From positions 1-64,000 of the IMG/VR virus record IMGVR_UViG_3300050821_006637: a stretch of DNA of 64,000 nucleotides; one strand, 5' to 3'. Positions 37,004 through 56,548 of the stretch are shown one piece after another. The notes beneath the pieces were generated by a model that was not told the DNA's origin, ran no database searches, and was given only the letters and a program-made list of their open reading frames with translations. The first letter of the stretch is position 1. Each line of letters begins with the position of its first letter. The translations under genes and the position numbers were made by a program. The DNA comes from a virus.

Positions 37004-40000
37004 ATGTCTCCCAAACCTCTTCCTCGCTTACCTAGTGTCCGTCCCTCTCCATATCGAACCAAATCCCTCTCTAAAGCCTGGGGACATTCCAGCGAATATT
37101 CCCCCGACCTCTATTCTGCGATGGATTTTGATGGTGATGTGAAACGAGGCTTGATACCAGTAAAGAACATCGCCCAACCGAATGACTTCTGGTGTCATCC
37201 CTGCTGTGTGGCGATGATTTGTCACTACTGGGGAGTAGGACCGAAAAACGTCGCCTCTATCGCCAAAGCCCTCGGCACGACAAGGAAGTATTCCACAGAC
37301 CCCAGAAAAGAAGTTCAATTCTACAAATCTCTCGGATTACAAGTAGAAGATAAGCATGAGATGACTTTGGAGCATCTCATGCACTATTGGAAGATTGGAT
37401 GGCCTTGTCAAATACTTTTACAAGAATATGGAGACCCGACAGAGGAGGAGAAACATCCCGACGCCAAGAAACACGGAGCTACGAGTAAGGATGACGAGGC
37501 TGCCTATGACTACGGACACTCTGTCGTCTATGTGGGAGGACCAGCTCTTGGTCTCATCTTTTGCCAAGATCCCAGCCTCGAAAATATTATGAGTAACGAA
37601 GGGGGTGACGAGGCGAAGGGGTTGATGCCCATTCCTGTTTTGAAGTTCCTCAAGGTATGGCACGACAGAGACCAGTGGGGTCATCAATATGTGCGATATG
37701 GAATCGCCGTCGGTCCTCCTCGTTGTGTTTCAACTAAAGGACTCAAGTCTCAAGTCGTTGCCGTCCCTGGTCGCTCTAACCAGCAGATAGCCAAGACACC
37801 ATTGAGCGGAGGAAATCTTTTTGGGCAGACTCCTGAGACGGAGGAAATGCGTCCTGTCTGGTACGGAACTGGAGAGGGGAGGAATCCAAAGAACCCAGAA
37901 TTGACGGAAGACCACCCAAAGCACAGATTGAAGAGTTTAGAGAAGAGTGATGGACATAAGCCTACTCTTGCTGTTGACTTAGATGGAACCCTCGCCGAGT
38001 ATGATGGATGGAAGGGAGAGGAGCACTTTGGAAAACCTCGTCAAGGTGCCAAAGATGCGATGCAAGCCTTCAAGCAAAGAGGCTACGAAATCATCATCTT
38101 TACGACACGAGGCAACACAGAATTAGTCCGTCAATGGTTGAATGAGAATGGAATAGTCTTTGATTACATAAATGAGAATCCCCACCAGCCAGAAGGTTCC
38201 AACGACGGAAAGCCGATTGCCGACCTTTATATAGATGACAGAGCAGTGGATGCCAGAGGCGAGTGGAGTAAGATAGTCTCCGAAGTTGAAAGAAGGCTAC
38301 GAAGTAAGCCAGAGGAAAAGAAATCAAAGTTCTCCTCCACGCAGTTCAACCTCGCAGAAGCAGGCTATCCCCGCTCCCAAGGTTCTCCCCTTGAAAAGAT
38401 AAAAGAACTCCAAGATAGAATCTCGGATGACGATTTGGCGGATGATGGTAAAGAGAAGGAGCACCACGTCACCTGTCTCTATGGTATTCATTCTGAGAAC
38501 CCAGAAGAAGTGAAGAAGGTGGTAGAGCACTGGGTGAGGCATCATTCAAGGACTATCTATGCCAAGTTAGGTGAAGTCTCCATCTTTGCAGGTGGTGAGG
38601 ATAAAGATTACGATGTGATTAAGATTGACGTGGAGAGTGAGGATTTGCACTCTTTGAATAAGATACTCAAAGAAAGTTTAGAGCACACGGACACCCATCC
38701 TACTTATCATCCACACTTGACGCTTGCCTATGTGAAGAAGGGGATGGGAGAGCAGTACGCTCAAGGTTTGAATGGGATGTGGAGTCCTGGGCACGAACTC
38801 CTCTTCCACAAACTCCATTTCTCAGATAAGGATAGAAAGCACACGATAATTGACCTTTGGGACTTGGCGAAGAATGAAGTCCCTTCCAAGTGTCTCCTCT
38901 GCGGCAGTCATAAAATCAAGGCTTTCCAAGATGGTGAGCCAGGATGGAGATGCACAGAAGCTCCTTGTGAGTGGTCGTTGACTCAAGCGGGAGCACCGAA
39001 TGACCATATGGAGGCTCCTGGCGGGATGACTGTCATCCAAAACCAGGAACCTTGGGAACGGAGCGGAGGAGAGAATCAACACTGGGAGAGGGACGGACAA
39101 CTCTTTTACTTCGGTCCCTCATTCCAAAATCCTTCGTATCCAAACTATCCTAGAAAGAAGGATTTGGATGAAGCCGAGGGTACACAGCAGCCGAAAACAG
39201 AGGAACCGAAGCAAGTAGAACAGCCAGAACAGGCAAGACAACCAGAGCAACAACCATCTGTTCCAGTTGAAAGGTCAAATCAATCTATAGAACCACTACA
39301 ACAGGATAAAGTAGAATCTGCCCCAGTGCAACAGGATGACTCGGAAGAAATTCATCATACCATTGGAAAATGGATAGATGACAGATATGCGGATAAATTT
39401 GCTGAATATGCGTCGGCTGTTCCACAGGTTCGTAACTGGTTGAAATGGGTTGGACAGCAACCAGCTTCTGGAGAAAGCGGTATTAATGAGGCTGTTTGGG
39501 TAGAGGATGCAGATGTAGTTTCCAATATGGTGATGGCATCCCAACAGAATCCAGCCATCCTTAATGAAATCCGTCCTGGCTTTGGGCATATGAAGATAAG
39601 AGAGGAAAAACAGAAACAGCAGCAGGCAACCCTTCCACTTCTCGTCCCAATAAAAGACCCTAAGAACTTCGGACAGATTTTGAATAGAGGACAAACGGCT
39701 GGAGGATTGGCGATTCCTCTAAACATTAGTATGGAGAAGCGTTCCTATCCTCCAGAGATTGGGCAGTTCGTTGTTTTTAGAAACCCAGAAGGAGAAACCA
39801 TTCAACTTGGCAGGATAAAAGATGTCCAGCCAAGAGAGAACAAGTGGGATATTAAGATAGAGCCGCAGTATAGACAAGAGTTTGAAAAGGATGAACTGGA
39901 GGCTTATGAAAATGGGCTCAATGCAGGGTACTCCCCAACTGACGAACTACCATTCCCAAAGGAACCTAAACTTGCTCAACTCTTTTATGCAGGGGTGTAT

Positions 40001-43000
40001 GACCGACGGAACTATCGTATTCCGGGTTCTGCCCTCGGTACACCTGCTTGGGGAGGTGACGTAAGAGAGTTTTGGGATGGATGGTATGCTTTGGAATCAC
40101 ATCGTTCCATTTTTTCCTATCTAAAACATTATAGACCAGATATCCTAGATGAAAGTGACCCTAGTTCTGCTAATACATTGGCAACCCAATTAAATCCAAT
40201 AGTAGAAGAATCATGGTTTCAGGAATTAAGAAAGAATCCTTATGCTGGGAAATTAGATTACGAACGGATAGTAGAAGGAGTCATCAACACTAGATTCCCA
40301 AAAGCCTCTAAATCCCTCCATATCAAATCTCAACAGACTTGTCCCGACGGCACTCCTCGCGACAGAAACACGAATAGTTGTGACGGACATAATGTTCCTA
40401 TCGTCACAGAAATGGGAATAGAGCAGGGAGACCATCACATTGGTGGGGAGATCCCCTCAAGTGGCAAAGGTTATATTCAGCCAGGATTAGATGCCTCTGC
40501 GGGCATTCCCAATGATTATCCACAAGAATGGGTCTTCTACCTCCAAGCCTATAACCGATGGCGAGTGAAGCCTGATATATTAGGTGAGAGAAGATTGCGG
40601 ATGGGGTATGAGAGGAGAAAGTCTCCGCAGGATATGGCATTACAGAATGATGAGGAGTGGAGATTAAAGGAGCAGAATAATACCTTTGAAAGCCAGATGG
40701 AATTAGTTAAGAACCCGATGGGGAATGCTTTAGAGCAGGTGATGGAAAAGAGAATCACTTGTCCCAATGGCACTCCTCGTCCTTATGGCAGTGACACCTG
40801 TTCTGGCAGACAAGCAGATTCATGGGATGGAGTAGTAGATAAGAATAACAAGCCTGGATGGGCAGAATATCCAGACTATGCTCCTGTCTCTGGTGTTGAT
40901 ACACGGAAGCCAAAGGACAGAGAAGAACCTGTCGTTGGACGAAGAAGATTCTTTAATAAAAAGGATATGGAGGAAGGACAATCTGCACAGCCAGCAGAAC
41001 CGAAGGTAGAAGAACCCAGCACTCCTCATGGATGGGGAACTGCGGGGGATGAGCCTGTTGCTCCTATTCCACACGAGATACCGGAAGATGAGAATCCTCC
41101 TTCTCCAGCACAAGGGATGAGGAGGATGTATAGAGGAACTAGAGGGGGTGAACTGCCACACGAACACGCCTACTTCTCAGACGAAAGAGGGCTTCCAGGC
41201 GTCGCTCGTGCCTTCGCTAAAGTTCCTGGCAGACGATTAGTCTATGTGGATGTGCCAGAAGAGATAGCACAGCAAGGATTACAGACAGGAGCAGTGACAG
41301 AGGGAGAATATAAATTACCAGAGGAGTACAGACGCCAAGTTCGGTATATGAAGTTCTTTAGTACGAAACGTGCGCCATATCCGAATCAACATCTCTGCCC
41401 CGATGGAACTCCTATGCCTCCAGGCACTGGGACGTGTGCTGGAAGAGAAGGTTGGGTTCCGTGGACAGAAGAGCAGAGGCAGCAGTTCACTTTGCAGGAG
41501 CCACCGAAAGGACCGAAGCCTTATCAACAAGCACCGATGAGGGGGAAGTACCCAAACAATCCTTCTGTTCGTCTGTCTCCCTACTCTACGAAACATTTGG
41601 ATGAGCAGGGTGGAGAAGTTCCACCCAGAGGACAGATGAAGGAAGCGGAGAAGTATGACTTCGTCACCCTGCCTAAAGATGTTTCTGGGACGAACTGCGG
41701 AAATTGTCTATTCGTCAAGGAGAAAGGGGAGGGACACATCTGTGGTCATCCCAAGCTCTATGGCTTGCCAGTGAATGAGAACAACTGCTGTGCGTTATGG
41801 GATGCGAAGAGTACGATGCGAGCGTGGGAAAAGAAACTCTGTCCCAACGGCACTCCTCTTCCTCGTGGCATTGGCACTTGTGCAGGACGTGGATTGCCAA
41901 TGCACTTTCACGATAACGAAAATTATAATTCCGTTGCAGCAGGACCAGACCACGTAGAAAGTCCCGAAGTGCTTGAGGGACAGGATTGGAAGTCTTTAGA
42001 GAAAGCGATGTCCTGGCTCGCCTCCGGGAGCGGAGGTGATTTAGTAGATGAACCAGAATGGAAAGGTCCTCGTCCCAAGAAAGTCAAGTCCTCTCCTTAT
42101 TCAAAGATGCTTTACAGAACCAAGGCAGAACCTCCGTATACGGGTGTATTCAAAGATTCATTGGGACGGAATACCTGTTATCAAAACGGAGTCAAAGTTT
42201 CCTGCGTCCAAATGGGCATAGAGGAAGACCCAGAGCCAGAACAAAGTAATTCCCTCTTGGCAGGCACTCAACACGCGGGAGGGGCAGCGAGTAATGAATC
42301 CCCGACGATGTATGGAGGGGCCGGAGGTTCCGTCACTCAAGTAAGATACGCTTTGATATTTGATAGTAAGGGTAGGCTGTTGGTGAATGAGGAGGATATG
42401 GAGTTGGGAGGATTCGTTTGGCAGATTCCAGGCACCACGGAACAGGAGGTAGAGAAGGGGATAAAAGAGCAGACGGATTTGAAAGTGAACTTATTTGGAA
42501 AGTTGGGAGATGCTGGTAGTGGACAAGGGTATTATCTATTTGAAGTGAAGGAACAGAAGAGACAGGGACGAAAGGCACTTGAGCCAATAGAGCCTGCGGA
42601 ACCAGAGGAGCCCAAAGAGACGGAGACAGAATCGCCGAAAGAACAAAAGACAGAGGAGCCATCTTCTTTCTCTCCACCTGTGCAGAATGAACCAGTAGAA
42701 AGGGACTGGGGTGATGATTTTCCAGAAGAGGGGTCATATGGTCTAAGGATGCCCGAGCCTAAACCTTCTCAACTAGAAGTTCAACAAGAGATAGATGCAG
42801 AGCCATCTTGGGGCGAATCCCCACGGACGGAGGAATTACAGTTAATCTATCAACACGCTGAGCAGTATAAAACACAAAGAGCACAAACAAGTAATTATGA
42901 TATTGAATTACCAAGTGACGAGGAAATAGCTACAGGACAGTACGAGTCATTTGGAACTGGAAGTCTCCATCAACTAGAAATCGGTAAGCTAATCATTAAT

Positions 43001-43708
43001 GGGGCGTCTTATTTTACGAAAGGATTGCCAAAAGACAAGACTGTTAATGAGATAATGGCTAATAGATTAGGTCACATTGCTGGGGTTCCTGTCCCGTCTG
43101 TCCGGCAAGTTAATTTGATGCATCTGCCTCGAGAATCTGAAGCACCCGATATAGCTATTCTAACGCCGTGGCTAGAGGGACAGACAGTAGAAGAGATAAT
43201 GACTGGGGTTTCTACTCTAACAGAAGAAATGGGCAGTGATAGAAGTTATGGAATGGATTTCCTAGAACAAATCGTCCAACCAGGAGATGTAGACTTACAG
43301 ATACTCTTTTCCTTTTTAGCAGGATTACAAGATAGGCATTTGGGAAATTATATGGTTTCTGGAGGTAGATTAATCTCCATTGACCATGAATGGATGAGAC
43401 GGGATGACACTCAAGAAAAGTTCCATAGCATTGGAGAAGATGACTTGTTATTCCTTTTATCCCAACAGATGTATGGTTCACCTCCTTATAGGGTAGATGA
43501 CATTCCTTTGAGTCAAGATATTGCTAAGATACTAGCTTCTAAAAAGGAGGAATATATTGCAGCGTGGAAAGAGGTAGACCCAACAGAATTAGGATTAGAT
43601 TCTTTCTTAAAACGACTAGAGGTACTTGAGAGATTTAGCGAATCTGAGGATAATACCTATAAGACCCTATCCTCAATCTCTAGACAGATATTCGGAATAC
43701 CAAAATGA
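37004..43708 (+). CDS. 2234-aa polyvalent effector protein: C39 peptidase, HAD phosphatase, 2H phosphoesterase (Acb1-like), ART-like, HiPIP-like, degenerate Nudix-like, C-terminal HipA/PI3-4-kinase-like
   Basis: QPNDFWC...GHSVV...QDP; VDLDGTL...FTTR...KP.ADLYIDDRA; HVTCLYG and HPHLTLAY; MYRG..YFS..EGEY; CGNC..C..CALW; NEIMANRL...DRHLGN...IDHE. Confidence 0.85.
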   Translation: MSPKPLPRLPSVRPSPYRTKSLSKAWGHSSEYSPDLYSAMDFDGDVKRGLIPVKNIAQPNDFWCHPCCVAMICHYWGVGPKNVASIAKALGTTRKYSTDPRKEVQFYKSLGLQVEDKHEMTLEHLMHYWKIGWPCQILLQEYGDPTEEEKHPDAKKHGATSKDDEAAYDYGHSVVYVGGPALGLIFCQDPSLENIMSNEGGDEAKGLMPIPVLKFLKVWHDRDQWGHQYVRYGIAVGPPRCVSTKGLKSQVVAVPGRSNQQIAKTPLSGGNLFGQTPETEEMRPVWYGTGEGRNPKNPELTEDHPKHRLKSLEKSDGHKPTLAVDLDGTLAEYDGWKGEEHFGKPRQGAKDAMQAFKQRGYEIIIFTTRGNTELVRQWLNENGIVFDYINENPHQPEGSNDGKPIADLYIDDRAVDARGEWSKIVSEVERRLRSKPEEKKSKFSSTQFNLAEAGYPRSQGSPLEKIKELQDRISDDDLADDGKEKEHHVTCLYGIHSENPEEVKKVVEHWVRHHSRTIYAKLGEVSIFAGGEDKDYDVIKIDVESEDLHSLNKILKESLEHTDTHPTYHPHLTLAYVKKGMGEQYAQGLNGMWSPGHELLFHKLHFSDKDRKHTIIDLWDLAKNEVPSKCLLCGSHKIKAFQDGEPGWRCTEAPCEWSLTQAGAPNDHMEAPGGMTVIQNQEPWERSGGENQHWERDGQLFYFGPSFQNPSYPNYPRKKDLDEAEGTQQPKTEEPKQVEQPEQARQPEQQPSVPVERSNQSIEPLQQDKVESAPVQQDDSEEIHHTIGKWIDDRYADKFAEYASAVPQVRNWLKWVGQQPASGESGINEAVWVEDADVVSNMVMASQQNPAILNEIRPGFGHMKIREEKQKQQQATLPLLVPIKDPKNFGQILNRGQTAGGLAIPLNISMEKRSYPPEIGQFVVFRNPEGETIQLGRIKDVQPRENKWDIKIEPQYRQEFEKDELEAYENGLNAGYSPTDELPFPKEPKLAQLFYAGVYDRRNYRIPGSALGTPAWGGDVREFWDGWYALESHRSIFSYLKHYRPDILDESDPSSANTLATQLNPIVEESWFQELRKNPYAGKLDYERIVEGVINTRFPKASKSLHIKSQQTCPDGTPRDRNTNSCDGHNVPIVTEMGIEQGDHHIGGEIPSSGKGYIQPGLDASAGIPNDYPQEWVFYLQAYNRWRVKPDILGERRLRMGYERRKSPQDMALQNDEEWRLKEQNNTFESQMELVKNPMGNALEQVMEKRITCPNGTPRPYGSDTCSGRQADSWDGVVDKNNKPGWAEYPDYAPVSGVDTRKPKDREEPVVGRRRFFNKKDMEEGQSAQPAEPKVEEPSTPHGWGTAGDEPVAPIPHEIPEDENPPSPAQGMRRMYRGTRGGELPHEHAYFSDERGLPGVARAFAKVPGRRLVYVDVPEEIAQQGLQTGAVTEGEYKLPEEYRRQVRYMKFFSTKRAPYPNQHLCPDGTPMPPGTGTCAGREGWVPWTEEQRQQFTLQEPPKGPKPYQQAPMRGKYPNNPSVRLSPYSTKHLDEQGGEVPPRGQMKEAEKYDFVTLPKDVSGTNCGNCLFVKEKGEGHICGHPKLYGLPVNENNCCALWDAKSTMRAWEKKLCPNGTPLPRGIGTCAGRGLPMHFHDNENYNSVAAGPDHVESPEVLEGQDWKSLEKAMSWLASGSGGDLVDEPEWKGPRPKKVKSSPYSKMLYRTKAEPPYTGVFKDSLGRNTCYQNGVKVSCVQMGIEEDPEPEQSNSLLAGTQHAGGAASNESPTMYGGAGGSVTQVRYALIFDSKGRLLVNEEDMELGGFVWQIPGTTEQEVEKGIKEQTDLKVNLFGKLGDAGSGQGYYLFEVKEQKRQGRKALEPIEPAEPEEPKETETESPKEQKTEEPSSFSPPVQNEPVERDWGDDFPEEGSYGLRMPEPKPSQLEVQQEIDAEPSWGESPRTEELQLIYQHAEQYKTQRAQTSNYDIELPSDEEIATGQYESFGTGSLHQLEIGKLIINGASYFTKGLPKDKTVNEIMANRLGHIAGVPVPSVRQVNLMHLPRESEAPDIAILTPWLEGQTVEEIMTGVSTLTEEMGSDRSYGMDFLEQIVQPGDVDLQILFSFLAGLQDRHLGNYMVSGGRLISIDHEWMRRDDTQEKFHSIGEDDLLFLLSQQMYGSPPYRVDDIPLSQDIAKILASKKEEYIAAWKEVDPTELGLDSFLKRLEVLERFSESEDNTYKTLSSISRQIFGIPK

Positions 43709-43905
43709 AGATAGAAGTTCACTTTCGAGACCAAATTATCGGCACAGGCACCAGCCGAGGGAATGAAGTCTTTTGGGAAGGTGAAGGCTCCAACCGAATA
43801 AAAATGATTGCCGCCCATTATGAACGACAAGGGTTCAAAGGAGACGTTCTACTCCAAAAGATGTTAGAAAGACTCCAAGGAATGTGGTGGGCTCAAGAAA
43901 TATGA
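43705..43905 (+). CDS. Small protein coupled to the kinase domain; putative immunity protein
   Basis: ATGA overlap with the upstream stop; resembles 47458..47712. Confidence 0.6.
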   Translation: MKIEVHFRDQIIGTGTSRGNEVFWEGEGSNRIKMIAAHYERQGFKGDVLLQKMLERLQGMWWAQEI

Positions 43906-46900
43906 ACTTCCTCTCCCTCAAAGAAATTGAATTTCGTCTAAAAGAAACCGACAATCCCGAATGGATTGAACGGGCTACTCCCCTTTTGAAAGAAGCCTTC
44001 CGCCAATGGCGTCATCTTCACTCAAAATCTGCGAGTCGCTCTCCACAAGGGAAGGAAATGGCTTCTGTCCATCCTTCTCCTTACTCAAAGATGCTTTATT
44101 CTAAGAAAGCCCGTCCAAAAGTCACTTTTACTGGCAGACAGACGGATGCACAAGGACGGCAGACTTGCTTTAGAGGTGGAAAACACGCTCCATGCGAGGA
44201 ATTTGGCGGACAGAATCAAGGATGGACGGGAGTAGAGCAAGAGCACTTACAGAAGGAGGGAGAAAAGGACTTAGAAACGACGGAAATAGAGCAGAAGAAG
44301 CCAAAACTACCTGAAAAAGTGGGCGAAAATCCGCAGATACAGCAACCAGAACAGCCAGAAGCAGAAGAAAGGGCGAAAATACAGCCAAATCCGTCAAAAG
44401 TAGAAGGATTTACGGAGGAACAGCCAGAACAGGTGAAAACCACAGAGGAGCCGAAGAAACCGCTTCCAAGTTCTCCGTCTACGAAACCTATTTCCAAATT
44501 TAAGATATCTTCGGAAAACGCCAAGTTAAATCCTTATTTTGATGATGGGTATTGGGAGGAGATTAAGGAGTCCATACGGGGTTTAATTTCGAGTGGAAGT
44601 GAATCTTCTATACAAACTCAAGATATAACACAGGACCAAACGGCTGGTATCCTCGCTTCATTTGTTGGGGCTCCTCCTAATTCTACTATACAAGTGTTCG
44701 ATGTTAGCCAGAAGAGTGGGGGACGTTACACTACCCTTGATGTGACGAATCCTATGTTTAAGAATTGTGTAAGAACTCTACTCGTCCGTTCAAATGGCAC
44801 TAAGGAGATAAGGAATGAAGAATTAGTCCTAAAGCCGCAATACAGAAACAATGGCGAGGGGTCTAACATCTTTTATGCTCAAGTGCAAAATGCGGCTGCT
44901 TATGGGTTCTCGGAAATATCTACTTCAGCGGGTAGTGGACGAGATATGAACGGGGTTACTACATGGCCACTGCTGGGTTATGATGCTTCTATCCAAGAAC
45001 TTTTTGATGGGTTAAGAAATCCTGAATCCTATGACTATTTTAAAAGAATTTTCCCAAACGCATACAGCATAAGTGAAATTATTGAGTCGCCCGAGGTGCC
45101 TTTATCTAAAGACCAGTTGCGTCAGGTTAATTATTCACTGGCTTCCTTGGCACAATGGCGGGGTTTGCCTTACACTAAGAAAAATGTTGTGAATGGAAGG
45201 GATTGGTGGAAGGCTTTTATACAGCAAAGTCGTCATCTTACTATTTCTGTTGATATGACATTTAACCTACATGAAGGCTCTACCTCCCGTAGGATTTTAG
45301 AAGCCTATATGAAACAACGTCAAAGGAGAACCAAGGCAATGGATATGCCGAAAGAAGATTATGAGGACATTAACTTAGCCCCGTGGGAGGAAGAAGCCTT
45401 AGAACGTGCGTGGGATAGTTTGGATAAGCAAACTTACGGACAGAAAGGTCTTCCTCCACTCCCCGACCAGACAGAAACTACTCTTAAATCTCCTCCCAAG
45501 GTTCCTCAATCTCGCTTCCATTCCTTCTTCCACGAACATAAAGCACTCGGAGAACGGAAAGCACCTCCTGCTCCAGGCAAGTATCCCAGTGACCTCAATG
45601 TCTCTAAGGTCACTTCCAATCCCTTACCCAATGCCCATCCGCCAGGAGAGCAACCACCCCCAGTTCCAGAGAATTCCGTCCAACACGGAGCACCAGATAC
45701 GGCTGCTCTCCAACAGATAGAACGATTGGTTGGAGAAAGGGGACAGGGGACTGGATTAGCACACGAAATCCGTGCCCATCAAGTGGATGCGTCTATCCTC
45801 CAGCAATTCCAAGCACACGGAGTTGCCTCACTCACGGACTTATCTAGCTTTCTAAGACAGCAAGGAGAAGCGGATTCTGCGAACTTAACAGAATTCCACG
45901 ATGATGAGTCTCCTTTCGTGGTTTTGAGTCAACCTCAACAGCAGATAAGTGGACAGAATGCGCCTTCCGTGGTAGTGGGGAAGCCATATGATAGAGTTAT
46001 CCATCTTTTAGAGGAGGCATTCCCTGGAGTTCACTTCTTGCCAGTGGAAGAGGCGGCGAATCAGTTGAAAGAGGCGGCTCAGAGCAATCCGTTGCCAGCA
46101 GCGAAAAGTTTTGGACAGAAGTCTAACTCTGTTGTTGACAACACGAACACGAAGTTGCCGCGGATGCCGAGTCACCAGACACAGAGTACGAGCAAGCCGG
46201 GAGGTGCCCAGCAACAGCCCCAGCAAGCCCCTACACAAGCCCCACAAGCTGTTCAACCAGTGCAACAGGCTATACCAGCACCTTTGGCACAGACGCAGTC
46301 TACAACACATTTCCAGCCCCAAATACAGCAACCTGTTGAACAATCTGCTCAACCACTAAACCAAGCGTCAGTTGAGCCAATTCAACAAATCGAAGCTCCA
46401 CTCACTGGGACACAAGATTCCGGTGCTCTAAATCTTTCTCCAGAAGGACCGAATGCTTATTATGACTATGCGTCTGCTTCACTCTACGGAGAAAAGATGG
46501 CAGAGCAGGCGCAGAAACTTTATGAACAACAAGGACTGCCTTATGAAGAAGCTGCCTCTCTAGCAAAGGATGCTTATAATCAAGCAGTGGACGAATGGAA
46601 TCAAGCACGATGGAACGAAAAGGGAATGAATGAAGCCCCCCTCCCAGAAGGAGAAACCCTAACTTCTCTTACTACAGAAATAGGACGTTTTCTTAGTACG
46701 GCACCAGAAGTGAAGAAAGAAAAACTTGGGAAAGGCGAGAATGGTGCTTGGAACGTAGAAGTAGAAGGTGGTTATCGTGGTGTGCAGAAATTAGGGAGAG
46801 ATGAAGCTTTTGATGCCGAAAGAACCACTGGGATTAAAAGTGGAACTATGTATCGCAGAGAAATTGCAACGAGTTCCGTAGCTAAAGCCATCCTTGGAGA

Positions 46901-47465
46901 TAAATTTAATCTAGTACCGGAAACCGTCCTCCGTCTCCAGAATGGAGCTCCAGGCAGTATGCAGAGTTATGTTGAAAACTTTAGAGCAGCGAGTGAAGTT
47001 GACTCAAAAATAGCTTATGGCAATAATCGAGAAGCCCTCCAATGGGCTTGGGTTTTGGATTACTTGACAGGAAACACAGATAGACATTTAGGTAATCACG
47101 GAATAAATGAATCTGGAGAATTAGTGTTGATAGACAATGGTTTGAGTATGCCGAGCAGAACAGCACGATTTGAAAGAATGTTTGAGTACCGAGCGGCGAA
47201 TATCCTTGCCCAAGGTATTACTAAAGATATAAAGCTGCCCGATGTCGCTTCCATCAAAGATAAATGGGCGACACTTGAAAAGATATTCATAGAATGTGGA
47301 ATAGATGAAAGGGCGATAAATTTGGCTAAATATAGATGGAACGATTTAGTTCTATTCTCTGGTCGTGCGTGTAGAGACGTTCCGTCTCTTTCTGGTAATA
47401 CGACTATGTACGGAATGTATACGAAACAGATAGACCTATTGAAAGCAAGAGGGATAAATGCTTAA
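43902..47465 (+). CDS. Polyvalent effector protein: GNAT acetyltransferase-like domain and C-terminal HipA/PI3-4-kinase-like domain
   Basis: LKPQYRNNGEGS...NGVTTWPLLGYD (GNAT motifs A/B); LGKGENGA, RREIA, LVPETV, GSMQSYV, LDYLTGNTDRHLGN, LIDNGL. Confidence 0.85.
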   Translation: MNFLSLKEIEFRLKETDNPEWIERATPLLKEAFRQWRHLHSKSASRSPQGKEMASVHPSPYSKMLYSKKARPKVTFTGRQTDAQGRQTCFRGGKHAPCEEFGGQNQGWTGVEQEHLQKEGEKDLETTEIEQKKPKLPEKVGENPQIQQPEQPEAEERAKIQPNPSKVEGFTEEQPEQVKTTEEPKKPLPSSPSTKPISKFKISSENAKLNPYFDDGYWEEIKESIRGLISSGSESSIQTQDITQDQTAGILASFVGAPPNSTIQVFDVSQKSGGRYTTLDVTNPMFKNCVRTLLVRSNGTKEIRNEELVLKPQYRNNGEGSNIFYAQVQNAAAYGFSEISTSAGSGRDMNGVTTWPLLGYDASIQELFDGLRNPESYDYFKRIFPNAYSISEIIESPEVPLSKDQLRQVNYSLASLAQWRGLPYTKKNVVNGRDWWKAFIQQSRHLTISVDMTFNLHEGSTSRRILEAYMKQRQRRTKAMDMPKEDYEDINLAPWEEEALERAWDSLDKQTYGQKGLPPLPDQTETTLKSPPKVPQSRFHSFFHEHKALGERKAPPAPGKYPSDLNVSKVTSNPLPNAHPPGEQPPPVPENSVQHGAPDTAALQQIERLVGERGQGTGLAHEIRAHQVDASILQQFQAHGVASLTDLSSFLRQQGEADSANLTEFHDDESPFVVLSQPQQQISGQNAPSVVVGKPYDRVIHLLEEAFPGVHFLPVEEAANQLKEAAQSNPLPAAKSFGQKSNSVVDNTNTKLPRMPSHQTQSTSKPGGAQQQPQQAPTQAPQAVQPVQQAIPAPLAQTQSTTHFQPQIQQPVEQSAQPLNQASVEPIQQIEAPLTGTQDSGALNLSPEGPNAYYDYASASLYGEKMAEQAQKLYEQQGLPYEEAASLAKDAYNQAVDEWNQARWNEKGMNEAPLPEGETLTSLTTEIGRFLSTAPEVKKEKLGKGENGAWNVEVEGGYRGVQKLGRDEAFDAERTTGIKSGTMYRREIATSSVAKAILGDKFNLVPETVLRLQNGAPGSMQSYVENFRAASEVDSKIAYGNNREALQWAWVLDYLTGNTDRHLGNHGINESGELVLIDNGLSMPSRTARFERMFEYRAANILAQGITKDIKLPDVASIKDKWATLEKIFIECGIDERAINLAKYRWNDLVLFSGRACRDVPSLSGNTTMYGMYTKQIDLLKARGINA

Positions 47466-47712
47466 AGTTCCTTTCTATAAGAATGCAAACTTCGCCCAGG
47501 AACTAATAGGATGGATTGTCCTTCGAGATAATCACCTCTCTGTCTATCCGTCTGATGCCCTGTCTCTGAAAGCCATCTTAGAGGGTCCTGTCATCAATAA
47601 AGATAACGAAGTTATCCTGTCGACAGAGGACCCCGAAGCCTGGTTGAAGGCACTTCCTCTCTTCTATCGCGGTTCGTACTTCTGGGCTGGCAAAGCCGAA
47701 GAGGAAGAGTGA
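47458..47712 (+). CDS. Small protein coupled to the kinase domain; putative immunity protein
   Basis: 8-nt overlap with the upstream gene; C-terminal WLKALP..YRGSYFWA similar to LLQKML..LQGMWWA. Confidence 0.6.
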   Translation: MLKVPFYKNANFAQELIGWIVLRDNHLSVYPSDALSLKAILEGPVINKDNEVILSTEDPEAWLKALPLFYRGSYFWAGKAEEEE

Positions 47713-47802
47713 TGAAGACTAAACATTTCTTGCCTTAAACATCACATCTAATCTATCGTTCCTATAGGGTCTTTCTTTTCTTCCTATTAGGAGACTATAG
47801 CC

Positions 47803-48027: not shown

Positions 48028-48100
48028 ATTACTAATAGAGGGGTGCTTGGTTGCTATACTATAGTAGGGTTTCAGCAATTTCCTATTATAGGAGACAATC

Positions 48101-49162
48101 ATGCAGGCAACAAAGAGAACTGGTGTTTATCTTTGGAAGTGCTTAGTGTCTGGGAAATGTTATGTTGGAAGTGCTTCTATCTCTTTTAAGGACAGGAAGA
48201 AGAGTCATTTAAGTGATTTACGAAGGGGAATTCATTATAATCGGTATTTTCAGGCTGCTTGGAATAAGTATGGTGAAGACACGTTTGAGTATTGGGAATT
48301 AGAAGTATGTCCTCCAGACCAGTGTATTGAAAGGGAGCAGTATTGGCTAGATTTGTATCAGGCAGCTGATTCTAGATATGGGTACAATTTATCCCCAACT
48401 GCTGGAAACTGCCGTGGCGTCATAAAAAGTGAGGAGGCAAGAGCCAAGCATTCCGTATTGATGAAGAAAAGATATGAAGACCAAGAAGAAAGAGAAAAAA
48501 CAAGGCTCTGCACAAAAGAGGCATATGACGACCCTGGGTTAAGGGGAAAGATTTCTCAAGCAGTAAGAGCAGCAAATGAACGACCAGGGATTGTAGAGAA
48601 AAGGGCTGCTGCGGTTAAAAAGTCTTATGAGGACTTCCCTCTTCGTAAGAAAAAGAAGGCTGAAGAAGGTCTAGAGAATTGGAATAAGGCAACAGAAGAG
48701 GAGAAGAAAAGTCGGTTATCTGGTCTTGTTGCTTGTTGCACGGATCCAGAACTCAAGAAGAAGAAAACTGAAGCCGTTCGTGCTGCTTGGGAAAATAAAA
48801 CAGATGAAGAGAAAGCGGCTTACGCAGAAAAGAAAAGAAAAGATTTATCCAGTCCAGAGGTAAGGAAGAGGATTTCTGAAGGATGTAAGAAAGGCTGTGC
48901 TATACCAGGACAAAAGGAACGGAAATCTAAAGCCACTGCCGAAGGATGGAAAGACCCTGAGAGTAGGGCGAAGAGGATAGAAGGGCTTAAAAGAGCCGCT
49001 GCCACTAATAAGAAAGCGGCGGAAAAGCGTGTCGCAGGGATTAAAGCAGCCTGGGCAGACCCTGAGAAACGAGCGAAGCGGTTAGCGGCTATTAAAGAAG
49101 GTTGGGCGAGAAGAAGAGAAAGATTAAAAGAAGAGAAAACCAAGGTTCCAAAGGATGAATAA
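48101..49162 (+). CDS. GIY-YIG homing endonuclease with basic helical repeats
   Basis: TGVY..KCYVGSA..R...H, EREQYW, YGYN; repeated (W/Y)xDPExRxK. Confidence 0.9.
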   Translation: MQATKRTGVYLWKCLVSGKCYVGSASISFKDRKKSHLSDLRRGIHYNRYFQAAWNKYGEDTFEYWELEVCPPDQCIEREQYWLDLYQAADSRYGYNLSPTAGNCRGVIKSEEARAKHSVLMKKRYEDQEEREKTRLCTKEAYDDPGLRGKISQAVRAANERPGIVEKRAAAVKKSYEDFPLRKKKKAEEGLENWNKATEEEKKSRLSGLVACCTDPELKKKKTEAVRAAWENKTDEEKAAYAEKKRKDLSSPEVRKRISEGCKKGCAIPGQKERKSKATAEGWKDPESRAKRIEGLKRAAATNKKAAEKRVAGIKAAWADPEKRAKRLAAIKEGWARRRERLKEEKTKVPKDE

Positions 49163-52100
49163 AGAAGTTCTATCTCTGTTAGATGCAAGGGAAAAGGATT
49201 TCCCTTTCCTCGACTCGAGTCAATATAGTTACAAATTAGCAGGAGGATCATACGGGCATGACGTCCCAGTCGCCATTCGAGATTTGGATATAGATGAAAA
49301 AACGATGAGCCTGTGGATTCCCGTTTGTGACGGCAATCGCAGAGATGGAGTAGGAGATTTGCTCGATGTCCTTGGAATTGACACTTCTAGGCATAAAAAG
49401 AACCCCATATGTTTATTAGATCATGGGAAACAGATTCCACTTCCAATTGCAAGAGCCAGAGAAGACCCCAAAGATGAGGAATCTTACACCTTTCGAATAA
49501 ATCCTGGGGAAAAGACGGCAGGATGTAGGGCATATTTTTATCAAGGAAAAGAGAATTGTGATGAAGTATTAGGATGCAAACAATTTGAGCACGGGATTCT
49601 ATGTCACCAATTGTTCCATATGGCGGCAAACGGGTTTTTGAACTCAGGTTCCATAGGCTACCAAATAATTTCTGCCGACCCACTTCCAGAAGATCCATAT
49701 CGTGGCATACCACGAGGGATGCATCTACAAAGGATACTTGCCCTCGAGAATTCTTTAGTCGTTTTGCCGGCCTCTCAGGATACTGTAGGAAAGTCCACTA
49801 ATACAGATGTATACCCCTACTCCGCCAAGCACTTGGAGGCTTGGGAATACACCCAAAAATCTCGCATCTGTGGCTCCCCTCCCTCCCCCTACTTAATCAA
49901 AGCCTTCAGTTCCTTCGCTCCTCCTCATAAGGCACAAGTGGTAGGTGGCTATGATTCTAAAGGAATGAGAACTATTATAGAAGATAGTTCTGGTAATCCT
50001 AGAGTCACTTCTAAACCATTAGGGAAAGGAGGAGTTGAAGATACTGCAAAGGATTTGTCTATTCATACAAAGTCGGCAGAAGCAATATTACACGGAAAAC
50101 CACACCCCCCAGGATGTAAATGTGCCAAGTGTATCAAGGAACTCCCATCCAAAAAGTCCTGTTCTTGTGATTCCTGCTCCAAAGGTCACTCGTGTCCTTG
50201 CGACACGAAAACCAAGGGAGTGAAGGACTTAGAGAATCAACCTGCTTCTGCTCTTCCTGAGAAGCCGACGACGAAGCCTGTTCCCACGTCACAATCTGCT
50301 CCGGGTTCTCCGCAACCAGCACAGCAGACGAAAACACCGAAACAGGCTGCGAATGTAGGACAACAGACTCCTCGTAACTTAACTCCTGCTCCTGCTCCAG
50401 TTCCTTCTCAACAGCAAGGACAGGCATCGCAGCAAGCGTCCGTTCAAAATACTCCACAAGGACAGATAATAAATCCAGTTACGCCTAATGCCGCTCTCTC
50501 TGGCCTAAGTACTGGAGCAGTGGAGATACCACAAGGGCAGCAGATTCCTCTCGCTCCGGTTCCTACTTTCAATCCTGCTCAACCTCAAAGAAATCCTGTC
50601 CAAAACACACCGCAAGGACAGACCCCTCCGCCTCTACCGAAACCAAAGTATCCCTACTCTCTACCTGTTCCCCCTGGTCAGCAAGCTGAACAAGCTCCAC
50701 AAACCTCTGGTCCTCCTCCACTTACGCCTGAAAGACTTGCGGCTACGCAAAGAACGAATTTCAACCCCAAGAATCTTCATCTGAAGAAAGTCGATTACTC
50801 CAAGTTAACACCAGAGCAAGCGACGAAGAAAGCCACGCAAGCGGCTCTAGCTGCTGGTGCGAATAAAAAGCAAGCACAACAGATTGCGAAGCAAGTCGTA
50901 GAACAGATGAAGAGGATGGGGAATAGACAACATCGTCAACAGCGGAATGCTAGATGGACGCCCCAAGGACCGAAATCCTTGGATATGAATTTCCATATCA
51001 AGTCTCTCCGCTCTAAATATGGAAAGAAGTCCTTACCGAATACAGGTAGGAAGTTTGAGGCGACGCCAGATGGGTCTTCACTTACACCGAAACTTCGTGG
51101 TGCCCCCAAGGTTCCTGGTCCCAAGCCAGTTGGAGAAGGTGCTTCACAGACACCTCCTGTCACTCCTAAACAAGACCCTACTTTCAAACCAGTGAAAGAA
51201 ACACCACCAGGAAATATTGAGGCGTATAGAAACGTCGGTGACGCCTCCAGTGGTGCATCAAATAACGAATCTAGAGAACCTCTCACGGAAGGAAGTATTC
51301 TGCCAGAGGAAGGATTTGAAGAATACCAGGAATGGACTCCAGAGAGTAATGAAGTAGGAGAGGAAGGAAGTGGAGAAGCACAAGAATATTTAGAACCAGA
51401 CCACATTGATTTATGGATAGGAAATCACGTAGCCAATCTTGTGGATTCTGGTGCCTTAGAAAATTGGAATAAGGAAGATGGTTTTGATGCCTCTATTACA
51501 GAAATAATGGATCAAATTAGTGACGAGGCAAGAGCAGAAGGGTTTGAGGGTGAAGAATATATCAAGATTATGGATGGGGTAATAGAAAACCTTCGGCTCG
51601 TATGGCTTGATACATTTGGAGATTGGGGTGGTGAAGGAATCGGACCTTTTGAAAAATCCCTCCGCTCCAAATATGTGAACAAAGATTCAAAGAAAGAAAA
51701 GAACCCTCCAGCCAGACGAAATAAGAAGACTGCCAATCGTCATATGGCAGCAGGAATAAATTCTGCTTTGGATAAAAGTGCTGGACTTAAACATCTGGGA
51801 GTTCCTAGTATGAACATAGGGAACATAGGAATCAAATGGTTAGATAAAAAAAGTCTTCTGGGACTACGAGACAAGTATAAGACGGCGAAGGGAAGACTGA
51901 AGCGACACAGGAAAGGTTCCCCTTCCAAGGCTTCTGTCCACGTATCCAGTAAAGACCTTGATAAATTAAGAAAAGACGCCGAATCTAAAGGCGTTGCCGT
52001 CAAGTGGAGAAGTGATGATGGAAAAGGGATGGCGAAAGTCCTTTTAGAAGGTGATGGCGGCGTCATAGAAAAGTTGGCGAATGCTCACGGGAAACTGAGG

Positions 52101-55081: not shown

Positions 55082-56548
55082 ATGGCTGCTCCTACTTTTG
55101 AGACGGTAGCCCTGGCCACCCAGCAGAACGGCGAGGCTATCCAGTCGTTGAATAAAACCCTCGGGACTGTTGTTGATAAACTCTCCCGTATGCCAATGCC
55201 CGGACAACCGACGCCGGAACAAGCATTCGGTACTCCTTGGATTCGTAATGGTGAGAGTTCTTTGGATGACTCCAGAGGCTTCTCCTACCTCAAAATGATT
55301 GGGCACATCGCTGGCTTCGTCCCAGACGAGCAGTGCAAGCATGAGCGGAACCTCGCCATGAGAATGGCGAAGTGCCTCTATGCGGATGCTGGCAACGACG
55401 GCTATCAGTGGGCTTCTCAGAATCGCCTTGGTGAGAAGAAATTCCTCGCTCCACTCGCTCCTAACTTCCTCCAGGACAACTTCGTTGACCGGAGCTTCCG
55501 TCGTGAGATGAAGCAGATGGTCGCCGCAGGGACGGACGGAGCCGACCTGGGAGAAGCGAGCTGGATTAAGCGAAAGATGCTTTCCCAGCAATATGGGACG
55601 AAAGCCCTTTCTTGGTTGAATGAACTCACTGGTGGTGCTATCGTCGCTCCGCCTGAGATGGGTGAGTTGATTGAACTTCTGAGAAATAAAGAGGCTCTGG
55701 TCAATGCAGGAGCCAGAGTTGTTCCTCTACCTCCACAGGGTAGATTAAAGTATCCTCGCCAGACTTCTCCATCCAATACCTTCTGGGTTGGTGAGAACTC
55801 TCCTATCACAGAATCCATCGTCGGTACTGGTGAGATTACTCTGCAAGCTAAGAAGCTCGCAGTCCTCATCAAGGCACCGAACGAGTTGATTCGTTTTGCC
55901 TCACCTGCGGCAGAGGCGTTGCTCCGAGACGATATGACGAAGAGTTTGGCTCTTGGTTTGGATTTGGCTGGATTAGAGGGACAGGGGAGTGACGTCAAGC
56001 CTCGCGGTGTGATTAACTATCCTGGAATCAACAGAATCCAGTCCTCTCAGATTGGTGTTAACTCTGGTGGTGTGGTAGTTGGACAGGACATCTACCGAAT
56101 GATTGCTGCGGTAGAGGAAAGTGACGCGGAGTTCGAAGCGTACATCATGCGTCCGAAGACTCTGTATAAGTATTATCAGCTGCGAGCTGATGCCGTCGTG
56201 GCGGGTGATGCGGCTGGTCCGTATCTGTTCAACCTGATTAGAGAGGCACAGGATGACACGCCCGCTTCGTTGGCTGGTTATCCCGTGGTGAAGTCGACTC
56301 AGGTTTCTCAGACTCGTTCCTATGCGGCTGCGACAAATCTGACCTATGTGGTTGGTGGAATGTGGAGTGATATGCTCATCGGTATGTTCGGTGCGATTGA
56401 GTTCGCGGCGACCACGATGGGTGACACCGCTTTCGTCAATGACCAGACGTGGGTGCGTGGTATTCTGTCGGCGGACGTGCAGTTGAGGCACGAGGCGGCG
56501 TTCGTTTTACTTGACAATCTCAACACTCTAGTTACGGCGGCAAGCTAA
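55082..56548 (+). CDS. Major capsid protein, HK97 fold, with N-terminal delta domain
   Basis: GGAIVAPP, YPRQT, WVGENSPI, ITLQAKKLA, NELIR, LEGQG..PRGV, LAGYPV, D..LRHEAAF; likely maturation site GTK174|ALS. Confidence 0.93.
   Translation: MAAPTFETVALATQQNGEAIQSLNKTLGTVVDKLSRMPMPGQPTPEQAFGTPWIRNGESSLDDSRGFSYLKMIGHIAGFVPDEQCKHERNLAMRMAKCLYADAGNDGYQWASQNRLGEKKFLAPLAPNFLQDNFVDRSFRREMKQMVAAGTDGADLGEASWIKRKMLSQQYGTKALSWLNELTGGAIVAPPEMGELIELLRNKEALVNAGARVVPLPPQGRLKYPRQTSPSNTFWVGENSPITESIVGTGEITLQAKKLAVLIKAPNELIRFASPAAEALLRDDMTKSLALGLDLAGLEGQGSDVKPRGVINYPGINRIQSSQIGVNSGGVVVGQDIYRMIAAVEESDAEFEAYIMRPKTLYKYYQLRADAVVAGDAAGPYLFNLIREAQDDTPASLAGYPVVKSTQVSQTRSYAAATNLTYVVGGMWSDMLIGMFGAIEFAATTMGDTAFVNDQTWVRGILSADVQLRHEAAFVLLDNLNTLVTAAS

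What the first reader, a model, noticed from the sequence alone, without database searches (positions are those of the whole stretch)
42950..47712. Two kinase-toxin / immunity-like gene pairs in tandem
Seen: both giant proteins end in a HipA/PI3-4-kinase-like domain (DRHLGN...ID(H/N)), and each is overlapped at its stop by a 66- or 84-aa ORF. The two small ORFs resemble each other (K-x-x-(V/P)-x-F-like start, (I/L)IG, C-terminal L..(M/L)....G..WA). Established: a C-terminal toxin plus an adjacent small immunity gene is the layout of polymorphic toxins, including phage MuF toxins. Inference: a small kinase-inhibitor family that protects the producing cell until the kinase is packaged, after which it is delivered without its inhibitor.
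Basis: partly seen in the sequence, partly recalled or inferred. Interest (0 to 1): 0.8.

Follow-up and report, generated by a model that had tools for sequence, protein, structure and literature searches.

The report
Phage kinase with dedicated small partner
Two giant cargo proteins of an uncultured soil phage each end in a kinase-like domain followed by a tiny coupled gene, and the second tiny gene belongs to an apparently undescribed family that follows this kinase in many other phages, as an inhibitor (immunity) gene would.

Summary
The layout is real. Giant1 (37004-43708) and giant2 (43884/43902-47465) both end in DRHLGN...ID(H/N). A 66-aa and an 84-aa ORF overlap their stops (ATGA; 8 nt).

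Kinase2 is a clear PI3/PI4-kinase-like domain, closest by sequence profile to solved type II PI4-kinases, not HipA. Kinase1 matches only over the catalytic loop.

The two small proteins show no significant pairwise similarity. But the 84-aa protein belongs to a family of about 85 aa (DPExW..LP..Y.GSY.RA) with no match in Pfam, PHROGs, NCBIfam or PDB sequences. This family starts right after the kinase gene in 52 of 72 viral loci fetched by the kinase. That is 46 of 62 non-redundant kinase ORFs, and 35 of 38 where the kinase is terminal. Three members found without reference to the kinase also follow one. The N-terminal architecture and the next gene vary. Tandem kinase-partner pairs recur in five other phage records.

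The 66-aa protein is probably a divergent member (profile-profile P 3.6e-4; 0 of 300 shuffles reach it), but this is unproven.

A dedicated kinase partner is well supported. An inhibitor or immunity role is the best reading, but it is untested.

Earlier notes of this scan report similar kinase plus small-partner arrangements on other DNA.

The parts
37004..43708 (+). giant1, a 2234-aa multidomain (polyvalent-type) protein: C39-like peptidase, HAD phosphatase-like, 2H phosphoesterase (Acb1-like), C-terminal kinase-like domain
   Evidence: ORF and translation. Pfam 2_5_RNA_ligase2 30.8 bits (cut-off 27); the other Pfam hits are below their cut-offs. PHROG phrog_1238 E 1.6e-25.
42833..43705 (+). 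kinase-like domain 1 (divergent): DRHLGN...IDH catalytic core
   Evidence: PI3_PI4_kinase 17.7 bits, below the cut-off. 14.7 bits over 36 residues against the family HMM built without window rows. Aligned with the family in A2.
43705..43905 (+). small1, a 66-aa ORF coupled at both ends (ATGA); a possible divergent member of the partner family
   Evidence: One homolog, P0005, at 67% identity. hhalign against the family: P 3.6e-4, 0 of 300 shuffles reach it. Negative: family HMM gives 2.2 bits and the rank test fails.
43884..47465 (+). giant2, 1193 aa (start at GTG 43884 or ATG 43902), with a C-terminal kinase
46617..47399 (+). kinase domain 2: PI3/PI4-kinase-like, with K, E, DRHxxN and IDN conserved
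   Evidence: Pfam 30.5 bits against a cut-off of 27.1. Family HMM 194 bits. 1006 cluster representatives at E<=1e-3. Family profile against PDB sequences: PI4K type II at 3e-11.
47458..47712 (+). small2, 84 aa, a member of the kinase-linked partner family of about 85 aa
   Evidence: HMM built without it: E 3.2e-18, 64 bits, full length. 8-nt overlap with giant2.
48101..49162 (+). context: GIY-YIG homing endonuclease between small2 and the next giant gene
   Evidence: Pfam GIY-YIG 36.9 bits; phrog_314.
49155..54998 (+). context: giant3, 1947 aa, no family match
55082..56548 (+). context: major capsid protein (HK97 type)
   Evidence: Pfam Phage_capsid 116 bits; phrog_617.

Best explanation
The stretch holds two tandem 'kinase plus dedicated small partner' modules inside the head-gene cluster of an uncultured phage of about 100 kb. 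Each giant multidomain protein is probably capsid cargo of the polyvalent or MuF-effector kind (inferred). Each ends in an atypical PI4K-II/FAM20-like kinase domain with the catalytic residues in place. The next gene is translationally coupled and encodes a small protein with no conserved polar catalytic-type residue, made together with the kinase.

Shown: the 84-aa protein belongs to a widespread family that tracks this kinase domain. It does so whatever lies N-terminal of the kinase and whatever gene follows.

Inferred: the partner binds the kinase domain and keeps it inactive in the producing cell, like the immunity protein of a polymorphic or MuF toxin. The kinase is later injected with the DNA and phosphorylates host targets.

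My odds: dedicated functional partner of the kinase, about 0.85. Partner acts as an inhibitor or immunity protein, about 0.5. The 66-aa protein is a divergent member of the same family, about 0.65.
For: Linkage.
- Of 72 viral loci fetched through the kinase motif, 52 have the small-family domain on the same strand. It starts mostly -7 to +45 nt from the kinase stop.
- Non-redundant count: 46 of 62 kinase ORFs, 44 of 50 with kinase E<1e-20, and 35 of 38 where the kinase ends within 60 aa of the stop. That HMM contains these members; membership was first set by a 22-sequence HMM.
- In the 6236 ORFs of these loci, all hits at E<=1e-3 but two follow a kinase. One lies directly before a kinase gene; one is a weak minus-strand hit.

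Reverse direction.
- A whole-record search of 5 phage records gave 6 family matches. Five lie directly after a kinase, one of them a second, previously unseen kinase. One lies directly before a kinase.
- A motif-only scan gave 2 new true members, both directly after a large ORF with a C-terminal kinase.

Variable surroundings.
- Kinase proteins are 200 to more than 5000 aa. Portal_Mu, Phage_Mu_F and 2H domains occur among 10 scanned.
- The gene after a standalone partner varies: scaffold 3, DUF2213 3, and one each of S78, Portal_Mu, Trypsin_2, Phage_tail_S and ATLF, of 29.

Tandem pairs recur in L027, L049, L037, L040 and G001. Kinase paralogs are 34-66% identical and partner paralogs 27-59%.

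Partner properties.
- No invariant column. The conserved positions are G, P, aromatic or aliphatic residues. Median pI is 5.6. This fits a binding protein rather than an enzyme.
- Fusion asymmetry: there are 0 kinase-then-partner fusions in 150 representatives or 77 locus ORFs. The partner is fused to the next protein in 14 of 47 members. This fits a partner that must stay separable from its kinase.

Precedent: a prophage MuF-type ADP-ribosyltransferase, Bxa, is neutralised by a binding immunity protein, Bsi (PMC11699363; abstract read).
Against:
- The phage's lifestyle is unknown. A lytic phage has less obvious need for immunity.
- The partner is fused to packaged-type proteins (MuF, ART) in 14 of 47 members, so it may enter the capsid and be delivered with the kinase.
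- 16 of 62 non-redundant kinase ORFs lack a detectable partner, mostly distant kinases or kinases that are not terminal. In one record the partner lies before the kinase.
- The loci were mostly fetched through the kinase. The reverse-linkage sample is small (3 independent members), and only virus collections yielded it.
- For pair 1 of the window both halves are weak. Kinase1 matches over 36 residues only. Small1 is not found by the family HMM (2.2 bits) or by a rank test (0 family members among the top 25 of 6236 ORFs).
- The kinase substrate is unknown. It could be a protein, lipid or sugar, so 'toxin' is an inference.
Confidence: 0.5

Rival explanations
1. The small protein is an assembly or packaging adaptor or chaperone. 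It docks on the C-terminal kinase domain to fold it or load it into the procapsid, or it chains one cargo protein to the next. It is not an inhibitor.
For: The partner domain is the N-terminal module of the next cargo protein in 14 of 47 non-redundant members. Of the 10 scanned, Phage_Mu_F occurs in 4, ADP-ribosyltransferase in 3 and 2H plus S78_2 protease in 1. Two kinase representatives and L040 carry it N-terminal of the next kinase. The pair sits in head-morphogenesis clusters. A shared linker motif follows the fused partner.
Against: The family was seen only next to this kinase, not next to the other cargo domains in the same arrays. Most members (33 of 47) are free-standing proteins of about 85 aa with nothing to tether. 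A generic loader would not need one diverged copy per kinase paralog.
Confidence: 0.25
2. The small protein is an activator, a regulatory subunit or the substrate of the kinase. The conserved Y.GSY segment could be a phospho-acceptor or a pseudosubstrate.
For: Ser, Thr and Tyr are common in the C-terminal motif: Y70 in 32, S73 in 26 and Y74 in 33 of 48. Co-expression is strict.
Against: None of these positions is invariant. A free late-expressed activator could not act with an injected kinase in the next cell. No kinase-then-partner fusion was seen, although fusion is common for obligate subunits.
Confidence: 0.12
3. For pair 1 only: the 66-aa ORF is an unrelated orphan gene, and its position after a kinase-like domain is a coincidence.
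For: BLASTP finds nothing and the shuffle tests are not significant. The family HMM gives 2.2 bits. Its own HMM ranks no family member among the top 25 of 6236 ORFs. Kinase1 itself is only marginally kinase-like.
Against: hhalign P is 3.6e-4, and 0 of 300 column shuffles reach the score (maximum 22.6 against 23.1). Its position and coupling match those in five other tandem-pair records. The C-terminal GMWWA matches the W variant of the family. Short members of 68-71 aa exist (L042, L073).
Confidence: 0.33
4. The adjacency is inherited synteny with no functional tie between the kinase and the small gene.
For: All loci are phage head clusters, which keep their gene order.
Against: The pair stays together at about 30% kinase identity, while both the N-terminal architecture and the downstream gene change. 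It is duplicated as a unit.
Confidence: 0.05

Closest known systems
MuF polymorphic toxins of temperate phages with adjacent immunity genes (Jamet et al. 2017, PMC5576092; Bxa/Bsi/BAH, Alexei et al. 2024, PMC11699363)
   Same: An enzyme domain at the extreme C-terminus of a phage head-associated protein, directly followed by a small coupled gene. Kinase homologs fused to Portal_Mu and Phage_Mu_F exist.
   Different: The window's giant proteins have no MuF match. The C-terminal domain is a kinase. 'Kinase' occurs 0 times in the main text of Jamet 2017 (supplements not seen). The lifestyle of this phage is unknown. The partner is often fused to the next effector. Toxicity and immunity are untested.
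Polyvalent proteins of phages and conjugative elements (Iyer et al. 2017, PMC5512222)
   Same: Giant multidomain proteins (peptidase, phosphoesterase, kinase) thought to be delivered with the DNA. That paper describes a kinase clade in such proteins, with phage T7 kinase as precedent (passages read).
   Different: The passages I read mention no small partner gene. I could not test whether their kinase clade (described as Ser/Thr/Tyr-type lacking the C-terminal subdomain) is this PI4K-like family. Their alignment file is external.
Type II phosphatidylinositol 4-kinases and FAM20-type kinases (closest solved structures by sequence profile)
   Same: The catalytic core matches: GS.Q hinge, DRxxxN loop and IDNG. 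The family profile hits PI4K2B at 3e-11, PI4K2A at 4e-10 and C. elegans FAM20 at 3e-8.
   Different: Only about 70-100 residues align. The substrate of the phage domain is unknown. No fold comparison was possible.
HipA-type kinase toxins with small antitoxins, e.g. HipS in HipBST (recalled, no call)
   Same: A kinase toxin neutralised by a protein of about 100 aa encoded beside it.
   Different: HipA_C scores 14.8 bits against a cut-off of 30.5. The partner lies downstream, not upstream. The setting is a phage head cluster, not a chromosomal toxin-antitoxin locus.

Membership tests
PI3/PI4-kinase-like domain (Pfam PF00454) | Score at or above Pfam's gathering threshold (27.1 bits) | tested here: met
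   Kinase2 scores 30.5 bits. All 10 scanned homologs pass. Kinase1 scores 17.7 bits and does not pass.
PI3/PI4-kinase-like domain (Pfam PF00454) | Catalytic loop DRHxxN and metal-binding Asp (DFG equivalent), plus N-lobe Lys and Glu | tested here: met
   K40, E64, D137, R138, H139, N142, I154 and D155 are invariant in the 18-row alignment A2, which includes both window domains. The N-lobe alignment of kinase1 is uncertain.
HipA kinase family (Pfam HipA_C) | Score at or above the gathering threshold (30.5 bits) | tested here: not met
   Kinase2 scores 14.8 bits on HipA_C. Kinase1 scores 13.4 bits on HipA_2, whose cut-off is 27.
Kinase-linked small partner family (about 85 aa, unnamed) | Full-length match to the family profile, with DPExW/F..LP..Y.GSY.RA at the C-terminus | tested here: met
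   Small2: E 3.2e-18 over model positions 2-83, using an HMM that excluded it.
Kinase-linked small partner family (about 85 aa, unnamed) | The same match for the 66-aa small1 | tested here: inconclusive
   The family HMM gives 2.2 bits. hhalign gives P 3.6e-4 over 36 columns, and 0 of 300 shuffles reach it. The rank test is negative.
Kinase-linked small partner family (about 85 aa, unnamed) | Gene starts directly after a gene ending in the kinase domain | tested here: met
   Both window ORFs do. So do 52 of 72 loci and 46 of 62 non-redundant kinase ORFs.
MuF polymorphic toxin system | N-terminal MuF (Phage_Mu_F) domain | tested here: not met
   Giant1 and giant2 have no Phage_Mu_F match. The domain is present in relatives (P0024) and in proteins fused to the partner.
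MuF polymorphic toxin system | Variable toxin domain at the extreme C-terminus | tested here: met
   The kinase ends within 60 aa of the C-terminus in 133 of 150 representatives, and in both window proteins.
MuF polymorphic toxin system | The toxin is harmful, and the downstream protein neutralises it specifically | not testable with these tools
   This needs expression and rescue assays. Co-folding was unavailable.
Polyvalent proteins (Iyer et al. 2017) | Two to 15 conflict-type domains in one polypeptide of a phage or plasmid | tested here: met
   Giant1 has a 2H phosphoesterase (30.8 bits, above the cut-off), HAD (phrog_1238, E 1.6e-25), a C39-like peptidase (below the cut-off) and a kinase-like domain.
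Polyvalent proteins (Iyer et al. 2017) | Packaged in the virion and delivered with the DNA | not testable with these tools
   Only the position supports this: the genes lie upstream of the capsid gene among head genes.

The most novel reading that the evidence does not exclude
A widespread, undescribed family of proteins of about 85 aa is the dedicated neutraliser of a capsid-delivered PI4K-like kinase effector of phages. The two form a kinase toxin-immunity module that duplicates as a unit. In many phages the module is daisy-chained, with the 'immunity' domain of one effector fused through a short linker motif to the next effector. Cargo arrays would then assemble as interlocked effector-inhibitor chains that are separated on packaging or ejection.
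Probability: 0.4. Interest if true: 0.75.

Novelty: new variant of a known kind. Interest (0 to 1): 0.62.

Why it matters
Phage proteins injected with the DNA are the first weapons in an infection, and their targets and control are mostly unknown. This stretch points to a large family of virion-associated atypical kinases: 1006 cluster representatives at E<=1e-3. It also points to a small protein that almost always accompanies them.

- If the partner is an inhibitor, it gives a ready genetic handle. Kinase alone against kinase plus partner could be used to find what these kinases phosphorylate.
- It would be a new natural kinase-inhibitor fold.
- It would show that even non-MuF giant cargo proteins follow toxin-immunity logic.

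The asymmetry of fusions (never kinase to partner, often partner to the next effector) suggests rules for how cargo arrays are built.

Tried and rejected
Searches that found nothing.
- Near and distant DNA search of the stretch against phage records found no match.
- Single-protein locus searches with either kinase domain in viral contigs found no relative.
- A word-index protein search found only the query itself for small2. It found one homolog, P0005, for small1. With the family alignment it gave only 3 proteins, so it gives no estimate of family size.
- The protein atlas gave no usable hit for small2. For L021's member it held only a poor model (pLDDT 0.40), so its structural neighbours mean nothing.
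- PDB sequence searches with either single kinase domain gave nothing significant. The family profile did.
- Both metagenome scans (small1 alignment; P0006) returned no relative. The contig of P0005 and the nearest relative phage could not be read.

Partial or misleading results.
- The scan of genome contigs for GNxDRHxGNW mostly hit a different kinase-like family in gut Firmicutes. Only L085 showed a kinase plus partner.
- The first motif-only scan for the partner (DPE.W..ALP) gave 3 known contigs and 2 chance hits.
- The promoter and terminator scan showed no more sites than shuffles.

Readings rejected.
- HipA membership.
- The small domain as simply the N-terminus of the downstream gene. 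Downstream genes vary while the upstream kinase is constant.

Literature. Six searches and passages of four papers gave no description of this kinase-partner pair. I did not see the supplementary domain tables of Jamet 2017 or the external files of Iyer 2017, and they may list such kinases.
Full report
WHAT IS THERE. The window is part of an 89-kb IMG/VR virus record, 85% complete by CheckV. It resembles no deposited phage at the DNA level. All large genes lie on the + strand.

The stretch belongs to a head-gene region:
- giant1, 37004-43708 (2234 aa);
- a 66-aa ORF, 43705-43905;
- giant2, 43884 (GTG) or 43902 (ATG) to 47465 (1193 aa);
- an 84-aa ORF, 47458-47712;
- a 388-nt spacer;
- a GIY-YIG homing endonuclease, 48101-49162;
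- giant3, 49155-54998;
- an HK97-type major capsid protein, 55082-56548.

The 66-aa ORF starts in an ATGA overlap with giant1's stop. Its own stop forms a second ATGA with the ATG at 43902. The 84-aa ORF overlaps giant2 by 8 nt and is preceded by AGAGGG.

THE KINASES. Both giants end in DRHLGN...ID(H/N).

Kinase2:
- The isolated C-terminus of giant2 passes Pfam PI3_PI4_kinase (30.5 against 27.1 bits). It fails HipA_C (14.8 against 30.5 bits).
- An exhaustive HMMER search with it found 1006 cluster representatives at E<=1e-3 and 231 at E<=1e-10.
- In 133 of the 150 listed representatives the domain ends within 60 aa of the C-terminus. The host proteins range from about 200 to more than 5000 aa.
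- All ten scanned representatives pass PI3_PI4_kinase. Two carry Portal_Mu, one of them also Phage_Mu_F, and one a 2H phosphoesterase.
- An 18-row alignment keeps K, E, DRH..N and ID invariant.
- Its profile hits type II PI4-kinases in the PDB sequence set (3e-11 to 6e-10), then FAM20-type kinases (3e-8), then Vps34 (2e-4).
So kinase2 is a bona fide atypical PI4K-II/FAM20-like kinase domain of a large, mostly phage-borne family.

Kinase1 is much weaker. It scores 17.7 bits in Pfam. Against a family HMM built without the window rows it scores 14.7 bits over 36 residues around the catalytic loop, while kinase2 scores 194 bits.

Giant1 also carries a 2H phosphoesterase (30.8 bits, with a weaker Acb1 hit), a HAD-type phosphatase (phrog_1238, 1.6e-25) and a C39-like peptidase below cut-off. 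This is the make-up of a 'polyvalent' phage protein (Iyer et al. 2017; passages read).

THE SMALL PROTEINS COMPARED DIRECTLY. BLASTP finds no alignment at E<=100. Local alignment is at chance (z 0.2). Global alignment is marginal (z 1.6 to 2.1). Neither protein has a Pfam, PHROG or NCBIfam match. A word-index search found nothing but the query for the 84-aa protein. For the 66-aa protein it found one homolog, P0005 (63 aa, 67% identity), on a 3.1-kb contig.

THE KEY RESULT. The kinase alignment fetched 72 loci from viral contigs. In many of them an ORF of about 70-105 aa starts within a few bases of the kinase stop.

- All-against-all BLASTP of 37 such ORFs plus the three small proteins gave one cluster of 23 that includes the window's 84-aa protein.
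- An HMM of the other 22 members scores the window's protein at E 3.2e-18 over its full length.
- The same HMM finds the domain on the same strand, directly after the kinase stop, in 52 of the 72 loci. The start lies mostly -7 to +45 nt from the stop, and +226 and +320 in two loci. One further weak minus-strand hit (L057) is not counted.
- Collapsed at 90% kinase identity, 46 of 62 kinase ORFs have the domain. The count is 44 of 50 when the kinase match is strong and 35 of 38 when the kinase is terminal. It is 11 of 24 when more sequence follows the kinase, and 2 of 12 for distant kinases. That HMM includes the members themselves.
- In the 6236 ORFs of these loci every hit at E<=1e-3 follows a kinase, with two exceptions. 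One copy lies directly upstream of a kinase gene (L024), and one is the L057 hit.

The family (47 non-redundant members plus the window's) has a median length of 85 aa and a median pI of 5.6. It has no invariant residue. Its signature is built of G, P, aromatic and aliphatic positions...hhG.h....DPE.(W/F)h..LP..Y.GSYhRA.

None of the libraries knows it:
- Pfam: no family matched by more than one of 48 members;
- PHROGs: 1 of 48, weak;
- PDB sequences: nothing below E 0.6;
- NCBIfam: 0 of 8 small proteins.

REVERSE DIRECTION. I needed members found without using the kinase.
- A search of five whole phage records (95-192 kb) with the family profile gave six matches. Four were the known ones after kinases. 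One was the copy upstream of a kinase. One was new, and it lies directly after a 1694-aa ORF whose C-terminus is a second kinase.
- A scan of viral contigs for the partner's own motif gave five stretches. Two were known contigs. One was a chance hit. Two were new true members, each directly after a large ORF ending in the kinase.
- An earlier motif scan gave only known contigs and two chance hits.
So three of three independently found members follow a kinase. This sample is small.

WHAT VARIES AND WHAT DOES NOT. The N-terminal parts of the kinase proteins differ widely. Among 29 genes that follow a free-standing partner, Pfam finds scaffold (3) and DUF2213 (3). It finds one each of prohead protease S78, Portal_Mu, Trypsin_2, Phage_tail_S and ATLF.

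In 14 of 47 non-redundant members the partner domain is the N-terminal module of a longer protein. Ten of these were scanned. Four hold Phage_Mu_F (one below cut-off). Three hold an ADP-ribosyltransferase. One holds 2H plus an XkdF-type protease. Two hold nothing known. In L040 and in two kinase representatives the partner domain sits N-terminal of the next kinase.

No kinase-then-partner fusion was seen in 150 representatives or 77 locus ORFs.

Kinase-partner pairs occur twice per record in L027, L049/L050, L037, L040 and G001. The paralogs are diverged: kinases 34-66% identical, partners 27-59%. The window is the most diverged such case.

IS THE 66-aa PROTEIN A MEMBER?
Against:
- The family HMM gives 2.2 bits.
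- Its own two-sequence HMM ranks no family member among the top 25 of 6236 ORFs.
- The family profile finds only the 84-aa gene in the phage's own record.
For:
- Profile-profile alignment of the protein plus P0005 against the family gives P 3.6e-4 over the N-terminal 36 columns (probability 36.8%).
- None of 300 column-shuffled controls reaches that score. The control mean is 10.0, sd 2.1, maximum 22.6, against 23.1.
- It sits exactly where the first partner sits in five other tandem arrays.
- Short members of 68-71 aa exist.
- Its C-terminal GMWWA matches the W variant of the motif, found in 7 of 48 members.
- Its own kinase is equally diverged.
I rate membership at about 0.65.

MECHANISM.
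Shown: a conserved, translationally coupled two-gene unit made of a terminal atypical kinase domain and a small protein with no conserved polar catalytic-type residue, specific to it. The unit is duplicated as a whole and sits among phage head and cargo genes.

Inferred: the giant proteins are packaged and injected. This rests on relatives fused to portal and MuF, and on the polyvalent domain content. The partner binds the kinase domain.

The best reading is an immunity-like inhibitor that silences newly made kinase in the producing cell. Four observations fit it: immediate downstream position, one diverged partner per kinase paralog, a binding-type conservation pattern, and the absence of kinase-partner fusions. 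The experimentally shown Bsi inhibitor of the prophage toxin Bxa is a precedent (abstract read).

Against it: the partner is often fused to proteins that are themselves packaged-type. In those phages it probably enters the capsid. Activator or substrate roles cannot be excluded.

COMPARISON AND NOVELTY. The theme is known: phage cargo enzymes at C-termini with small downstream immunity genes, and polyvalent proteins with kinases (PMC5576092, PMC3482391, PMC5512222, PMC11699363).
- In the passages and abstracts I read, no small partner of a phage kinase is described.
- 'Kinase' is absent from the main text of the MuF-toxin paper.
- The polymorphic-toxin survey lists only a lantibiotic-type peptide kinase.
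- Six literature searches found nothing closer. Supplements were not seen.

Earlier AI notes of this scan report MuF or giant head proteins on other genomes that carry a kinase, often with an ADP-ribosyltransferase. They also report small partner genes and 'daisy-chained' partner-effector fusions. My results agree with them, and I tested the linkage and the fusions independently here.

I class the finding as a new variant of a known kind: a new kinase-partner family within the logic of phage-delivered effectors and immunity.

Noticed in passing
L015, L026, L030, L037, L047, L058, L060 (residues just after the fused partner domain): Where the partner domain is fused to the next cargo protein, a short shared motif follows it within about 10-40 residues. 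It reads roughly (Y/W)(D/S)E.(Q/H)PRD..G(R/K)(F/W)(S/T).GGG and is often followed by a Gly run. It may be a module boundary or a processing or loading signal. An earlier scan note on another genome describes a similar leader.
   Followed up: partly
window 47713-49162: A GIY-YIG homing endonuclease gene sits between small2 and giant3. The spacer before it holds two copies of CCTATTA(TA)GGAGAC (47783 and 48082), each just upstream of a start codon. Chance expectation is 0.01. This may be a duplicated ribosome-site or promoter region linked to the endonuclease insertion.
   Followed up: partly
window 37004-43708 and 43884-47465: Giant1 residues 1687-1738 and giant2 residues 55-108 share a segment (SPYSKMLY...GR.TC..G; BLASTP E 6e-8). 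Giant1 also repeats CP(D/N)GTP...TC(A/S)GR four times. Their function is unknown. Other first-reader notes read the SPY motif as a capsid-targeting or cleavage signal.
   Followed up: no
window 37004-43708 (residues about 315-580): Giant1 carries a HAD phosphatase-like domain and a 2H phosphoesterase with a weak Acb1 (anti-CBASS) match. A kinase homolog (P0011) and a partner-fused protein (L029) carry 2H domains too.
   Followed up: partly
window 27854-29614: A UDP-glucose dehydrogenase gene appears to be interrupted by an intein-like insert. Intein_splicing and PT-HINT match residues about 287-356, both below their cut-offs.
   Followed up: no
L180 (genome contigs locus): One open frame spans the whole 8-kb locus and holds four successive matches to the kinase profile (E 3e-10 to 6e-25). 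This looks like a giant protein with repeated kinase-like domains in a bacterial assembly.
   Followed up: no
L079-L198 (genome contigs): A separate family of kinase-like proteins shares the GNxDRHxGNW loop but little else with the phage kinase. Its members mostly have open frames of about 350-400 aa and come from gut Clostridia and Lachnospiraceae. They score E of about 1e-5 to 1e-6 against the profile and have no small partner.
   Followed up: partly
L024 / G002:C1:97728-97979: This is the one exception to the gene order. The partner gene lies directly upstream of the kinase ORF, with no kinase before it and no partner after it.
   Followed up: partly
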